NCBI GenBank assembly: GCA_964016885.1
Contig: OZ024740.1
Location: 212,970,001-213,034,000, forward strand
DNA: 64,000 nt
Source of the DNA: Eledone cirrhosa
Lineage: Eukaryota
Direction of reading: 5' to 3'
The notes beneath the pieces were generated by a model, which was given only the letters and a program-made list of their open reading frames with translations, was not told the origin of the DNA and did not search any database. Each line of letters starts with the position of its first letter. Position 1 is the first letter of the stretch. Shown piece by piece: positions 13,490 to 49,293 of this stretch. A program made the translations under genes and the position numbers.

Positions 13490-13574
13490 ATGGTATCACT
13501 TCAGAAGCTGCGTAGGAGTTTTGTTATATTTGTAACAATATTATTTGTTGCAATTATAATATTGGAATTTCAAC
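13490..13574 (+). CDS. Host gene coding exon 1: type II signal anchor of an HtrL/YibB-like protein
   Basis: ATG at 13490 reads MVSLQKLRRSFVIFVTILFVAIIILEFQ (basic residues then a hydrophobic helix) and ends at donor C|GTAAGT, phase 1. A possible upstream acceptor TTTCAG| lies at 13376. Confidence 0.78.
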
Positions 13575-14266
13575 GTAAGTTATATTTCATTTCTTATAAT
13601 TTTCATCATAATTTTACATTTCTTTTATTTTAAAATTGCATTTTCCACATTATTAGATGTTTTTGTTTAATTCATATGTTTTAATAAAGTGTTATTGTTG
13701 ATGTGGGATAAGTCAGCTGTGTTTTATATAAATTTAGTATTGAGTTCATAAAGAGATTAAAGAATCTTATTAATGTTTCAAATAAACCAAATGTTCTGGT
13801 TTAGAGTGAACATGAAGAAAGCAATAGTCCAAAGTAGGAATCAAAGTAGAAATATATAAAATGTCCATTAAGCCATAGATATGTTTATGTTATTATTTGT
13901 ACTGAAACTAATGTTTTGATATTATTTTTGTTTCGAGTTTATCAAGTTAAAGTTAGAATTAGTTATTTATATATGGTTTTCAGTTAAGTTTAACTGAATA
14001 TGACATATCAACGTTTTTTACCAGTAATTATATCAGGATGGAATCTTCTACAATTTACTTTGACATTCTTGCCCAGAAATAATTCCAAACACCATTATTC
14101 ATGCCAGTTCTACTCAATAGTACTTTACAAAGACAAACCCATTAGAGAGAAACTGATGTGAAAAATGTAATTTTAATGTAGATCTCATTTTTATTTAAAT
14201 ATTTAATATTTAAATATATCAATATTATGTATTGTATTTCAATAATTATTTTTATATTATTTACAG

Positions 14267-14313
14267 GCCAGGAATTTGTAGAAAAGATTAAGTTTAAACT
14301 TATAGGAGCCTAT
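14267..14313 (+). CDS. Host gene coding exon 2 (47 nt, stem region)
   Basis: Acceptor TTTACAG| and donor |GTAAGA. Phase 1 in and phase 0 out gives RQEFVEKIKFKLIGAY, in frame with both neighbours. Confidence 0.72.
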
Positions 14314-14428
14314 GTAAGAATTTCTTAAATTTCTTCTTAATATATTTTAGTAAAAGAAAATTGAACTATGGGAATAAAAGTATTGATGCATTATTTGGGA
14401 ATATTGTCCTTCTTAATATGTATGTATG

Positions 14429-14536
14429 TATATATATATATATATATATATATATATATATATATATATATATATATATATATATATATATATATATATA
14501 TATATATATATATATATATATATATATATATATATA
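14429..14536. repeat. (TA)n microsatellite
   Basis: Perfect dinucleotide run. Similar runs occur at 15118-15137, 15254-15309, 19931-20008 and 23100-23178. Confidence 0.98.
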
Positions 14537-14704
14537 CGGGATAACAAATAATAGTTATATGCAGTCCACTTAGGTGTAGTCCAGTTATGGTATTCCGGGT
14601 AGTGGATGATATCAACGCTTGGCTTGGTTTGACTCAACAAGACGTTTTCATAGTGATGTTGCGAGTATGCTGTAATTCCTATGTTGTAAACACTTGGAGT
14701 AATA

Positions 14705-45096: not shown

Positions 45097-45134
45097 ATTA
45101 TTATTATTATTGTTATTTCCTTTATTATTTTTAT

Positions 45135-45680
45135 TGCGCTTCATTACTGCTTTTCCGAGCAAACTTCTGTGCGCCTTGGGTATGTGCAGTGTAGTTTTTG
45201 CTGATGTTGTTTCTATTGTATTGATAGTACTTTACGAAATATGTGTGGAGTGCCTAGTAGCGCTATCTTTTGTATGCTGTATATATTTGTAAGTCCTGGA
45301 GTTTTGGCTATGTATTTGTCTGTGTGTTTTTACTCATTCCTAGAGCACCTATTATTATAGGTATTGTTTCTGTTTTCCTTTTCCACTTTCGAGTTATTTC
45401 TATCGCTAGATCTTTATATTTGGAGAGTTTCTCTATTTTCTTGGAAGATATATTGTCGTCTGTGGGGATAGATACATCTATTAAAAGGCATTTTTTTTCT
45501 TTGTGGTCTTTGGTCTTGACCTCTCTGTCTGTATGTATTGGCATATCTCAGAGAATGGTTGCTTTGTCATTCTCTGACACTTTTTCTGGTATGTGTTTGT
45601 ACCATCTTTTTTATGTTGGTATTTCATAATGCTGGCATAATTTCCAGTGTATGAAGGTTCCAACTCTATCATGCCTGCGG
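45135..45680 (-). mobile_element. R4/Dong-like LINE 3' fragment
   Basis: PIHTDREV, CLLIDVSIP.D, EKLSKYKDL.IEI and IPIIIGALG; the 3' side abuts (TAA)n-like repeats. Confidence 0.85.
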
Positions 45681-46479
45681 ATATATCTTTTGTTTACTTC
45701 GACTCAACCGTGAATATAATTATATGTAGTAGAGATACCGCCTTAACAAAGATTTATATAAGACATATATACAATCTGAGCCTCAACAGCATCAAACAAC
45801 CAGAACTAGACATTAACCCCCAACACTTAAATTAACAAGTAAGACGTATTATTAAAAGTTAATTGGTTTATATAACTAAATCGTCTGATTCAGCGGAAGC
45901 TAGCGGTGGATAGACACCTATTGAAACTAGTGGTAGCAGCTAGGAACATATAGGTGTTCCCAGTACCAGTAGAAGATTACCTGACACTATAACATCAAAG
46001 CCAACAGTGATAAATAGAGAGATAATGCGATTGCTGAAGCTATAGGCAACCGACTACAGACTTCTCTCAACACATTATTTGAAATACAAACCTATTTGGG
46101 AGGATATATTTCAGTAGGTTGAAAACCTTAATTAGAGTTACAGGCCATGCAACATCAATATAAGAAAAGAAGCCTCCAAACTAGAACTAATAGCAGGTAA
46201 TTATCTAACTGGATATGTGAACCAATAAATCTTTTGATAATTGTGTCTGCTATTACATTGTTAACTTATCAGAAGGAACCGAAGCCACACAATCAAGATA
46301 CATGGGCACACAGCTTAAAAACAGCATTTTCTCCTTTCAAAGACATATCTCACTGATATTTGAAATTATGAAATTTGATGTGGACAACAATTTCACACAA
46401 CACAAGAAAAGTTTAAGAGAGAAATCAGAAAGGGGATTTAGAGATAAAGGATTAAAAAAAACCAACTGAACACGCAGTT

Positions 46480-47700
46480 GCAACAGAAACACTAATCTAC
46501 AGCATATAAACAGCAAATACTGAATCGACTATTTGCCAGGGATGTCAAATCGATCTCTTATAGCTTCACTGTAGTGTGGCTGGACTAACAGAAGACCTTC
46601 ATTAATATACTTCATTGGTTGAGTGAAAAGGCTTCATAGTTAGTCACACAACCACTTGTAGCTGTTATCCAATGTCTGACCAAGTCATGCTACATCCCAT
46701 TTTGAGATGATAGGAAGCAAAGTGAATCTGATACTATACACCACCAACACACATCTTGCAGAGCGATAGAATGTCAGTGCAGATCATTATTGTTCTCATT
46801 AAACCCATTAACATACCTGCTCACAAAAAATTAGAAATATTTCTCATCTTTTCTTTGTTAATGACCTGAAGTTGTATGGGCCAAACATCTTACAAACCAT
46901 AGAGAAAATTGGCGCTCATTTGCCAACTTTCTACAGGCTGATGTTTAATGATTCCAAATGTGCATTATTGGTGATGAAACATAGAAAGGTTGTAACTCTC
47001 CCCGAAAAACTAAACATGAACGGCTTGACAATACAATCTTTACATTGACGTGTCAACTACAGGTATCTTAGACAAGATGGGAATGTCAGATATGATGGAC
47101 CTCTATATAAGGAGAGTGCTAAGAATAAATACCTCAGGAGAGGTATCGTAATGCAAACATTTGGCCTTCTCAACTGGTCACTGTAAGAACTTAACTAGGA
47201 ATGAACACGAATGCGCAAGCAGCTCATTGTTACTGGAAATGTCAACATCAATTGGGATGTGGACAGACAATAACTCCCATGCTAGGAATGTGGGCAGGAT
47301 CTAAAATCCATATCAACATTGTATGAGGTCTGAATACTAACACTAAAACAATATCTTCAACAGAAGAAAAAAGTCAGCAACTATCTCATCCAGTTTTATA
47401 AACACGAAAATAACAATATTGTTAGAATATCCATTGAACATGAGAAGAAACATGAAATAAAAGCTGTCACAAATCTCTCTCCCAAGATCATTGGAAATCT
47501 TTTCTCAATGCTTGAAGAAAATAAAAAGTTAGATTGAAAATGTTGTACATGGGTACTTAAGATGGGAAATGCAGGCCATAGAGGTGGTAAATCACACTAA
47601 ATAACTTACATGGAATTCCGACAAGTTCTTAACATTGCTCATTGAAGGAAACCTCTATGAACAAGAAATGACTACCATGTACCAACTGAACAAAAGCGGA
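46480..47700 (+). mobile_element. Very degenerate R4-like RT remnant
   Basis: Relics of F.NDLKLY, YRYL.QD.N and TGN..IN.DVDR; similar to 59180-59740 and 60590-61150. Confidence 0.5.
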
Positions 47701-48393
47701 AAATTATCAGCTCCTTAATTCATAAGCTATGATATTTGGAACTTTCAAAATATGTAAAATATTCTTAAAATTTAAAGGATGAATAATTGAATATAAGGCG
47801 ACGAGATATTCGTCTTCTTTAAAAACGTACCACCGGGGAGCCGGAGAGATTTCCAATCAAAATAAACTTGAATTGAAGAAAAATAGTCAAACGACATGTA
47901 TGTCTTTATGATGTTTTATACTATTTTATGGTAATTGGTATGTCCATTAATATTTTTGTAAATTGTTTCATATATCATCATCATTATCATCATTATCATA
48001 ATTTTTACGTCAACTTTTCCATGCTGGGAGTTTTTGATATAAAGTTGTACAGGAAAATGTCCTTCATGAAGCCAACTCTTTTAGTCGGCTTTTACGACAT
48101 ACGGGGATTCAATTTGTCTATTTTATAAATTAAGACATATATGGGAATCTTGGATTTAATTTATTAGGTCATACATTTTGATACAGATCAGATATATTTG
48201 CTAAAAAAATTTATTTGTTTAATTAATGCGAAATGATTTACTTTATCTCATGATTTTTTTGCTAGTCATTTCTTTGTTTTCTAAATATATTTTGTCATTC
48301 CTATGGTATGAAATACGACACTCTAAAATATTTCGCATTATATTTTCATTATATCATCTCTTAATGTAATTTTCTATATTATTTATTTTACAG

Positions 48394-49293
48394 GATCATA
48401 TGATGACATTAATAGATAACTTGAATATAGCAATCACTTCAATAAAAAAAAACATTCTCCCTTTTGAAAAAGATCTTCCAAAAAACACCATAAACCTTTC
48501 CAAAGAAATCACAATACTGACTGCATATTTTAATATAGGAACCTTTGGAAAGGGAAGTCCTGGAAATAAGCGTGGTCCCAGCACGTATTACAAATGGATG
48601 TCTGTATTTGCTAACATCACTAATAATTTAATTGTTTATACTGATGATGAAACTACATATAAATCATTTCAAAAGATGAGGAGCAGATTTTCCAAAGAAC
48701 AAACCAAGTTATTTCTGATAGATACGAAAAAATTGTGGACATTTCAGATAAAAAAAAATATTTCTGATATATTTAGTCAACCTGGTTACCCAAAACATCA
48801 TCCCAATACAGTTTGGCCAGAATACGCTTGTGCTATGCATGCAAAATTTGAGTTACTTAACCGAATTATAAGAAAGAACTATTTTCATACGAAATACTTT
48901 ATGTGGTTAGATATGGGATATTTCAGATCACCCCATTATAGTTCCGAAATGAGACTTGCAATACCTAAAGATTTTAATGATTCTAGCGTTGCATATAGCC
49001 AAGTAGGTAGTTTTAATAAGAATATAACCTATAAAAATATTGTTTATAGCAATGTGGTGTGGTTGGCAGGTGGCTGTAACCTTGGCAAATATGATGTTTT
49101 GTACAAATTTACTCAAGAGTATTTAAACTTTGTTAAGAAAGCTTTGTCCTTGAAGCTTATAAGTACAGATCAGCAAATCATATATGGAATGTATGTTGAC
49201 AAAGAAAAACCCAAAACACAGCTTCAAATTTATAAATCAGGTTGGTTTAAATTAGGTACTGTATGTTATGAAGCTGGGAAGAAATCAACATAA
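48394..49293 (+). CDS. Host gene terminal exon: HtrL/YibB-like domain, putative glycosyltransferase-like
   Basis: Acceptor TTTTACAG|GATCATATG in phase 0, then an intact 300-codon frame with motifs ILTAYFNIG, LIVYTDD, PEY..M.AKF, YFMWLDMGYFR, WLAGG and TDQQII that match my recollection of the HtrL_YibB family. Confidence 0.85.
   Translation, partial: DHMMTLIDNLNIAITSIKKNILPFEKDLPKNTINLSKEITILTAYFNIGTFGKGSPGNKRGPSTYYKWMSVFANITNNLIVYTDDETTYKSFQKMRSRFSKEQTKLFLIDTKKLWTFQIKKNISDIFSQPGYPKHHPNTVWPEYACAMHAKFELLNRIIRKNYFHTKYFMWLDMGYFRSPHYSSEMRLAIPKDFNDSSVAYSQVGSFNKNITYKNIVYSNVVWLAGGCNLGKYDVLYKFTQEYLNFVKKALSLKLISTDQQIIYGMYVDKEKPKTQLQIYKSGWFKLGTVCYEAGKKST

What the first reader, a model, noticed from the sequence alone, without database searches (positions are those of the whole stretch)
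13490..49293. Spliced animal gene for a membrane-anchored HtrL/YibB-like protein, hidden across a 34-kb intron
Seen: three exons with canonical GT-AG sites and matching phases (1, then 0) give a 343-aa protein; the ORF track shows only the last exon. Established: htrL/yibB is a gene of unknown function beside the E. coli LPS core (waa) locus. Inference: the short basic tail, transmembrane helix, stem, WLDMG and TDQQ motifs fit a Golgi type II GT-A glycosyltransferase. This may be an uncharacterised glycan-modifying enzyme, with possible patchy or horizontal ancestry given that the domain sits in a single exon.
Basis: partly seen in the sequence, partly recalled or inferred. Interest (0 to 1): 0.75.

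Follow-up and report, generated by a model that had tools for sequence, protein, structure and literature searches.

The report
Octopus glycosyltransferase cluster with swappable segment
This is a real three-exon octopus-type gene, one of nine intact neighbouring copies, whose protein is predicted to fold like a membrane-anchored sugar-adding enzyme, and the copies differ mainly in one 60-residue segment that likely sets which sugar or target each enzyme uses.

Summary
The gene is real. Three GT-AG exons give 343 aa. A spliced contig joins exons 1–2 exactly. The exon 2–3 join is shown only for a paralog, not across this copy's 34,080-nt intron. The domain is Pfam HtrL_YibB (E 1.7e-20). A 97.7-pLDDT model has a GT-A fold, closest to GT6, LARGE1, UGGT and XXT1. 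It has D-x-G in place of DxD.

New here: the gene is one of nine intact copies within 2.7 Mb (12, 95). Two copy types are 91% identical outside residues 216–275 but 55% inside, and segment types recur across octopod genera. This suggests long-lived specificity cassettes in homogenised frames.

The horizontal-transfer hint is not supported. A paralog has an intron inside the domain (27), homologues occur across molluscs, annelids, nemerteans and a cnidarian, and the tree groups cephalopods together and most gastropods together.

A glycosyltransferase guess for E. coli HtrL is already in print (PMC13614932), and this scan noted it earlier on bacterial DNA. No activity was measured.

The parts
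13490..13574 (+). Coding part of exon 1: Met, short basic tail (KLRR), transmembrane helix at about residues 10-28. Transcribed sequence reaches back to at least 13412.
   Evidence: X4 contig 13412-13574 with 0 differences
13575..14266 (+). Intron 1, 692 nt, GT..AG, phase 1
   Evidence: joint 13574->14267 in X4, absent from X1
14267..14313 (+). Exon 2, 47 nt, start of the stem. The older paralog type has an upstream acceptor giving 62 nt; a 15-nt deletion leaves only the inner, in-frame acceptor here.
14314..48393 (+). Intron 2, 34,080 nt, GT..AG, phase 0, rich in repeats. It is 2.8-51.6 kb in the other units.
   Evidence: intron sequence shared at 98-99% by four other units; junction bridged only in a paralog
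48394..49293 (+). Exon 3: rest of the stem plus the whole HtrL_YibB / predicted GT-A domain, ending in TAA
   Evidence: PF09612 E 1.7e-20; model pLDDT 97.7; fold searches
48844..48846 (+). Lys195, invariant (134 of 134 rows with a residue); likely contacts the donor (inferred)
48904..48918 (+). WLDMG. Asp217 is invariant (135 of 135) at the end of a core strand, where GT-A enzymes carry DxD; the third position is Gly in 132 of 135.
48907..49086 (+). Divergent segment, residues 216-275, from the Asp motif to the glycine-rich loop; candidate specificity cassette
49066..49074 (+). AGG glycine-rich loop, likely the G-loop; GGA in the L007-L009 copies
49165..49176 (+). TDQQ at the start of a helix, likely the xED position; Asp303 is D in 123 and E in 11 of 135 rows; DDDQG in bacterial HtrL
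34462..36621 (-). LINE-type endonuclease + reverse transcriptase frame inside intron 2; a passenger, not part of the gene
   Evidence: RVT_1 E 2e-23, Exo_endo_phos E 2.2e-11
40331..42733 (-). Second LINE-type reverse transcriptase frame inside intron 2
   Evidence: RVT_1 E 2.1e-26

Best explanation
The locus is a spliced gene in a tandem cluster of nine intact copies, encoding an HtrL_YibB-family protein with an N-terminal membrane helix and a predicted GT-A fold that likely works as a Golgi glycosyltransferase. Shown: exon structure, splicing of intron 1, family, conserved residues, copy layout and the mosaic pattern. Predicted: the fold. Inferred: the helix anchors the protein with the domain in the lumen, where it binds a nucleotide sugar and adds the sugar to a glycan on secreted or surface molecules. 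Retaining chemistry is the best guess, because the nearest solved folds are GT6, GT8, GT24 and GT34 enzymes (their retaining class is recalled CAZy knowledge). The second Asp of DxD is missing, so the invariant Lys195 and near-invariant Arg222 may replace part of the metal's role, as in metal-independent bacterial GT6. Also inferred: residues 216-275 set donor or acceptor choice, gene conversion between neighbours homogenises the rest of the coding exon, and distinct versions of this segment persist, giving a small panel of enzymes that vary surface glycans.
For: Fold: pLDDT 97.7, pTM 0.93 from a 135-row alignment. Foldseek best hit BoGT6a E 2.5e-7, TM about 0.5. Among 48,161 chains the first eight rows are all GT-A glycosyltransferases: LARGE1 Z 11.4 (rmsd 4.0, 201 aligned), BoGT6a 11.3 (3.9, 189), UGGT 10.9, XXT1 10.7, GTB 10.6; LARGE1 12.6 and alpha3GalT 12.2 in the second look. 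Motifs: D217 135/135, G270 125/135, D303 123/135, Q304 126/135, K195 134/134. The same motifs are in E. coli HtrL (hhalign 99.1%, E 1.6e-18), and W.DFG and DDDQG are in 10 of 10 bacterial loci examined, out of 16 fetched. Context: htrL lies beside the waa genes, and an E. coli variant with an htrL mutation was among five with altered LPS gels (PMC13614932, section 7). Anchor: 46 of 76 Met-starting homologues with a long N-terminus have a hydrophobic stretch; five N-glycosylation sequons. Cluster: 9 intact units of 341-360 aa; exon 3 dN/dS 0.51-0.56 between the window copy and L007-L009. Mosaic: window vs L007 33/60 identical in the segment against 177/194 outside; the O. bimaculoides pair P0003/P0004 shows the same dip (35/55 vs 174/194); same-type pairs across species show none (47/60 vs 155/194; 46/55 vs 170/194); position-corrected scan p 5e-5, the permutation floor. 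AU tests reject each partition's tree on the other, p 0.032 and 2.5e-11.
Against: No activity, donor, acceptor or location was measured. No sequence match to any solved structure (0 hits). The motif register against GT8 was not recovered by profile comparison (probability 0.8%, only two GT8 rows), so the DxD, G-loop and xED labels rest on position in the predicted secondary structure. Structural matches are moderate (rmsd 3.5-4.3 A, 7-14% identity), and inverting enzymes and nucleotidyltransferases follow at Z about 9, so the retaining call is weak. The canonical DxD is absent. 30 of 76 homologues lack the hydrophobic stretch at the threshold used; truncated gene models are the likely reason, but this was not checked. 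The segment was chosen after seeing the differences. The AU topologies come from the same data, and four rows (L004, L005, L010, P0009) were left out of those trees. The window's own segment groups with no other species at useful support (56-57%). Synonymous divergence is only modestly higher in the segment (11/38 vs about 15/113, p 0.044). P0004 is a partial gene model. Three further copies are broken and two carry Asp303->Glu, which also fits decay of surplus copies.
Confidence: 0.7

Rival explanations
1. The protein is released into mucus or other secretions and acts outside the cell as a defence or glycan-binding factor, not as a resident Golgi enzyme.
For: C. elegans HTRL-1 carries this domain, is described as secreted and pharynx-expressed, and is grouped with antimicrobial genes by analogy only (PMC8989417 passages). 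One weak peptide match to a snail family member is listed in a mucus fraction (63%, E 4e-4; PMC11206429 table passage). Tandem amplification is common for immune genes (general knowledge).
Against: The basic tail, 19-residue helix and stem fit an uncleaved type II anchor. The putative catalytic residues are kept from bacteria to animals. Nucleotide sugars are scarce outside cells (general knowledge).
Confidence: 0.12
2. It is an ordinary glycosyltransferase, but the cluster is a largely neutral segmental amplification, and the mosaic is a chance footprint of old gene-conversion tracts with no difference in specificity.
For: Five units are 96-100% identical in exon 3 and share intron sequence at 98-99%. 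Three copies are broken. Window vs L005 has 12 non-synonymous and 1 synonymous difference, too few to tell relaxed from positive selection.
Against: The identity dip falls on the same segment in a second species pair, and same-type segments stay as similar across genera as their flanks do. Variants of both main types appear in the spliced run X4.
Confidence: 0.3
3. The GT-A-like fold carries out a related reaction other than sugar transfer to a glycan, such as nucleotidyl transfer.
For: CMP-sugar synthetases and a guanylyltransferase appear at Z 8.7-9.2. DxD is not complete.
Against: The first eight rows, Z 10.0-11.4, are glycosyltransferases, and the 40 rows listed by Foldseek are GT6 or xyloside xylosyltransferase entries. 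A luminal location fits glycan synthesis better (inference).
Confidence: 0.08
4. The domain entered the cephalopod lineage recently by horizontal transfer as an intronless exon.
For: The domain is in one exon in this cluster. Bacterial and giant-virus relatives exist.
Against: The C11 paralog has an intron inside the domain. Homologues occur in many molluscs, annelids, nemerteans and a cnidarian at 32-47% identity. Cephalopod and gastropod clades are each 100/98, and the branch to the sampled bacteria is about 3 changes per site. Bacterial sampling was limited to relatives of E. coli HtrL.
Confidence: 0.03

Closest known systems
Pfam PF09612 HtrL_YibB; E. coli HtrL (b3618), Acinetobacter OCL5 HtrL
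   Same: Over the Pfam cut-off (74.2 vs 24.1 bits); full-length profile match to E. coli HtrL with shared W.D.G, GG and DQ motifs.
   Different: About 25% identity; far below the TIGR02192 equivalog cut-off (83 vs 265 bits). The animal protein adds a membrane helix and stem, is spliced and is amplified in tandem. The bacterial genes sit in LPS/LOS loci.
Annotated mollusc 'uncharacterized' / 'protein HtrL-like' genes (Octopus, Argonauta, Haliotis, Littorina, Elysia and others)
   Same: 63-70% identity to octopod proteins; same N-terminus and junction positions. The 360-aa paralogs here match the length of P0002 and P0003.
   Different: These carry no functional annotation in the names returned. 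The window copy has a shorter stem and its own version of residues 216-275.
CAZy GT6 (ABO GTA/GTB, alpha3GalT, metal-independent BoGT6a)
   Same: Best Foldseek and near-best VIA matches; type II layout; loss of DxD parallels prokaryotic GT6 (PMC7185993 passage); G-loop variation between copies recalls the G-loop's donor role in ABO enzymes (same passage).
   Different: No sequence similarity; 7-14% structural identity, rmsd about 4 A; not a GT6 member.
GT8/GT24/GT34 folds (LARGE1 N-terminal domain, UGGT, XXT1, PBCV-1 capsid glycosyltransferase)
   Same: Z 10.5-12.6. A DQ pair at the helix start is also seen in E. coli WaaO/WaaJ (PDQD).
   Different: Those enzymes mostly carry DxD (DAD in WaaO/WaaJ). 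No Pfam match among 135 members, and the profile comparison with two GT8 rows was not significant.
C. elegans HTRL-1 (T11F9.12)
   Same: Same Pfam domain in an animal (PMC8989417 passages).
   Different: 736 aa, described as secreted and saposin-related. That paper says the domain occurs outside nematodes only in bacteria, which contradict. It was not aligned here.

Membership tests
Pfam PF09612 HtrL_YibB | Score above the gathering cut-off over the model's length | tested here: met
   74.2 bits vs 24.1, profile 2-260 of 267; 135 of 135 alignment members match
NCBIfam TIGR02192 / PRK11346 YibB equivalog | Score above the curated cut-off | tested here: not met
   83.3 vs 264.9 and 63.8 vs 342 bits
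GT-A fold glycosyltransferases | Single alpha/beta/alpha GT-A domain | tested here: met
   Predicted model pLDDT 97.7; Z 10-12.6 with 164-202 aligned residues to GT-A enzymes. Predicted, not solved.
GT-A fold glycosyltransferases | DxD metal-binding motif | tested here: not met
   D-x-G in 132 of 135 rows, D-I-D in 1. GT14 and prokaryotic GT6 also lack it (PMC7185993), so it is common but not required.
GT-A fold glycosyltransferases | G-loop and xED-position residue | tested here: inconclusive
   Conserved Gly270 before a strand and Asp303 at a helix start; no residue-level superposition was available and the profile test failed
GT-A fold glycosyltransferases | Sugar transfer from a nucleotide sugar | not testable with these tools
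   Needs an assay
Golgi type II membrane enzymes | Short basic tail, one N-terminal helix, stem, C-terminal domain | tested here: met
   KD19 peak 2.48 at residue 10 and no other window above 1.2; 46 of 76 long homologues alike
Golgi type II membrane enzymes | Uncleaved anchor and Golgi residence | not testable with these tools
   Needs localisation
CAZy GT6 | Sequence similarity to GT6 members | tested here: not met
   No Pfam GT6 match for the window protein and none among the 25 of 34 families listed for the alignment; 0 PDB sequence hits although GT6 chains are in the library
CAZy GT8 | Sequence similarity to GT8 members | tested here: inconclusive
   No Pfam match; hhalign 0.8% against a two-row alignment, a weak test

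The most novel reading that the evidence does not exclude
Octopods carry an ABO-like glycan-variation system built on an uncharacterised, probably metal-independent GT-A family. Tandem copies share a frame kept uniform by gene conversion, while alternative 60-residue specificity cassettes older than the genera are preserved and re-amplified, letting animals vary surface or mucus glycans against microbes or for self-recognition.
Probability: 0.3. Interest if true: 0.75.

Novelty: new variant of a known kind. Interest (0 to 1): 0.52.

Why it matters
A review of mollusc N-glycans expects glycosyltransferases with new specificities in this phylum (PMC8699351 passage). Here is a widespread invertebrate family, with 501 clusters at 50% identity and E <= 0.001, that now has a confident fold prediction, candidate active-site residues and natural variants differing almost only in one segment. 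That makes donor and acceptor specificity directly testable and could also explain bacterial HtrL. The gene itself is an ordinary member of a known, unnamed family. The interest lies in the enzyme class and in the cassette-like evolution of the cluster.

Tried and rejected
No RNA holder was listed for the exon; this says nothing about expression. X4 was used only for the joints its contigs show.

PDB sequence searches found nothing with the single protein or the profile. The profile comparison with two E. coli GT8 enzymes was not significant, and the own-genome PF01501 search gave only two short exon matches, which were not used.

A pattern scan of prokaryote and viral collections with the deep alignment was not possible. 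Bacteria were sampled through E. coli HtrL only and viral contigs were not scanned, so close microbial relatives may be missed. Plasmid and phage searches gave only 22-27% matches.

The upstream exons of the C11 paralog were not found by tblastn in about 20 kb. Whether its intron position is shared by other animals was not settled: of four homologues whose match broke near there, one ends abruptly a few codons earlier.

Assembly artefact as the source of the copies was considered and judged unlikely. In DNA-like runs X1-X3 (one sample), contig depth is about 52-70 for the window type, 21-29 for variants specific to L007-L009 and 9.4-9.8 for the contig matching L010, close to the assembly's 6:3:1. 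The tool warns that depth is not copy number, so this is weak support.

A missing exon inside intron 2 was rejected because homologues and the paralog transcript are colinear across the junction.

Literature: 'htrL' + 'GT-A' gave 0 papers; 'htrL' + 'glycosyltransferase' 5; family-name terms 36; 'htrL' alone 42; octopus expansion terms 7; 'WlaTC' + 'glycosyltransferase' 3. No listed title concerns this family in cephalopods. Subscription papers and all supplements were not seen, and genome-paper supplements may list the Pfam expansion. Holden et al. 2012 on WlaTC is not held and was seen only as a reference.

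
Full report
Observation. The window holds no second copy of any exon. Four public runs hold the sequence, none on record as RNA. X1-X3 cover introns and exons alike and behave as DNA. X4 gave cover on the exons and none on the adjoining unique intron stretches. One X4 contig (207 nt, 0 differences) skips 13575-14266 with GT..AG ends, and its two upstream variants match the window copy and one twin. It stops at 14310. A second X4 contig (466 nt) runs from exon 2 into exon 3, but all 23 substitutions over 48437-48779 are those of paralog L007. 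So intron 1 is shown for this copy type, and the exon 2-3 junction is shown for the family but not across this copy's 34,080 nt. Annotated Octopus and Argonauta proteins are colinear across both junctions.

Surroundings. The genome search gave 17 matches. Nine full exon-3 copies lie on contig C1 between 210.4 and 213.1 Mb, in both orientations, and each has exons 1 and 2 upstream on the same strand and an open joined frame of 341-360 aa. Intron 2 ranges from 2.8 to 51.6 kb. Five units share intron sequence at 98-100%, so the long intron was copied with the gene. It contains LINE-type frames, at least 18% of its length by two queries. Two more copies in the cluster and one at C1:2.76 Mb stop early. 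A distant paralog on C11 (41-49% identity) has a GT-AG intron just after the W.D.GYFR motif. Contig depths in the DNA-like runs fit the assembled copy numbers roughly, which is weak evidence against an assembly artefact.

Family and fold. Exon 3 matches Pfam HtrL_YibB above its cut-off and the YibB equivalog models below theirs. The animal profile aligns along the length of E. coli HtrL. There are 501 clusters at E <= 0.001. Named relatives include cephalopods, gastropods, bivalves, annelids, nemerteans and Exaiptasia. The Atlas search with homologue P0003 returns HtrL clusters and one unnamed, mostly basidiomycete cluster. AlphaFold2 on 135 rows gave pLDDT 97.7. Foldseek ranks the metal-independent GT6 BoGT6a first. 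The independent search of 48,161 chains puts LARGE1, BoGT6a, UGGT, XXT1 and GTB at Z 10.6-11.4, effectively tied, with inverting enzymes and nucleotidyltransferases at about 9 (one search agrees). Predicted giant-virus proteins are closer, TM up to 0.74. No solved structure matches by sequence.

Mechanism. Shown: invariant Asp217 at the end of a core strand followed by x-Gly, invariant Lys195, Arg222 (132 of 135), Gly270, and Asp303-Gln304 at a helix start. W.DFG and DDDQG occur in 10 of 10 bacterial loci examined. Passages of PMC7185993 define DxD, G-loop and xED as the GT-A core, give the G-loop a donor-binding role in ABO enzymes, assign acceptor choice to hypervariable regions and note loss of DxD with metal independence in prokaryotic GT6. 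Mapping our motifs on those labels is inferred from position; a direct profile test against two GT8 enzymes failed. The most likely working model is a type II Golgi enzyme that transfers a sugar from a nucleotide donor to a glycan, probably with retention and possibly without metal. I put about 0.8 on glycosyltransferase, about 0.7 on the Golgi-type reading, and about 0.5 each on retaining and metal-independent chemistry.

Mosaic copies. The window copy and the L007-L009 type are 88-92% identical in three regions but 58% in residues 216-280. With the segment set at 216-275 the figures are 33/60 against 177/194. A scan over shuffled columns, which corrects for choosing the position, gives p 5e-5 for a 60-residue window at 213-272. 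In that segment L007 is closer to proteins of other genera (45/60 and 46/60) than to its neighbour. The O. bimaculoides pair P0003/P0004 shows the same dip, and P0004 shares its segment with O. sinensis P0001 (46/55). Same-type pairs show no dip, so the segment is not simply fast-evolving. Segment and flank trees reject each other (AU p 0.032 and 2.5e-11; 11 rows, four left out). At DNA level, window and L007 differ at 0-10 sites per 100 in the conserved coding parts, 22-25 in the segment and 15-31 in the adjoining non-coding DNA. This fits old paralogs whose coding frame has been homogenised while the segment was spared. Purifying selection on the flanks explains part of this. Synonymous divergence is only about twice as high in the segment (p 0.044), and the window's own segment has no firm partner in another species. 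Specificity differences are therefore a hypothesis.

Ancestry. In a 34-row tree the seven cephalopod rows form a clade (100/98) beside a ten-row gastropod clade (100/98). One gastropod row and the bivalves fall elsewhere, and the six bacterial rows are about 3 changes per site away. With the intron in the C11 paralog this argues against recent transfer. Single-exon catalytic domains are common in Golgi glycosyltransferase genes (recalled). Ancient transfer is open, because bacteria were sampled only through E. coli HtrL and viral, fungal and nematode members were not in the tree.

What is known. Two Acinetobacter papers list HtrL_YibB as hypothetical with no Pfam clan (passages). PMC13614932 calls E. 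coli htrL a putative glycosyltransferase and includes an htrL variant among strains with altered LPS (passages and section 7). PMC8989417 names C. elegans htrl-1 and says the domain is otherwise bacterial (passages). A coral genome paper lists the domain in a table (passage). A cuttlefish genome paper does not mention it in its main text. Earlier notes of this scan reached the glycosyltransferase fold for bacterial HtrL and described a bacterial tandem array with variable loops; I saw them after the mosaic analysis and did not check them beyond the E. coli motif comparison. No note covers this genome or sequence. My searches found no paper on the family in cephalopods.

Verdict. The horizontal-transfer hint is not supported. 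The family is known and the fold guess is not new, but the animal membrane-anchored branch is unstudied, and the amplified, mosaic cluster is a testable lead. New variant of a known kind; interest 0.52.

Noticed in passing
window 14245-14267; L018-L022: A 15-nt deletion removed the older exon 2 acceptor in five copies; an inner AG 15 nt downstream is used, keeping the frame. The spliced contig confirms it, and the older copies still hold both acceptors.
   Followed up: yes
G000:C11:30834227-30837027 (L033): Distant paralog with a phase-2 GT-AG intron of about 2 kb inside the domain; its upstream exons were not found.
   Followed up: partly
L005, L006: Two intact copies carry TEQQ in place of TDQQ and differ from the window copy at 12-13 non-synonymous against 1-2 synonymous sites.
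   Followed up: partly
L010, L011, L012; L025: Three copies have frames that stop early; the one at C1:2.76 Mb also has an insertion splitting exon 1 and lies 208 Mb from the cluster.
   Followed up: partly
window 13340-13490: An acceptor-like site near 13377 and a loose 5' end in a paralog's X4 contig suggest a further non-coding exon upstream.
   Followed up: no
window 16437-18023 and 23164-24569: Two stretches of intron 2 are duplicated internally at 98.5-99% identity.
   Followed up: partly
window 49625-49950: Two pieces of a very high-copy short repeat right behind the gene; summed contig depth in the millions in X1-X3.
   Followed up: no
window about 50000-56000: GC-rich (54-58%), strongly skewed stretch that begins as a tandem repeat of about 40 nt just downstream of the gene.
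   Followed up: no
window 1-12600: Several LINE-like frames upstream of exon 1, similar by eye to those in intron 2; one ORF at 6380-7954 had no Pfam match.
   Followed up: no
Atlas hit for P0003: An unnamed cluster of 664 proteins, commonest phylum Basidiomycota, scores 0.93 by features; a possible fungal branch of the family without a Pfam label.
   Followed up: no
BFVD hits; phage hits H2, H3: Pithovirus, Bodo saltans virus and Solumvirus models match at TM 0.69-0.74, closer than any solved structure; two Campylobacter phage records hold a 22% full-length match.
   Followed up: no
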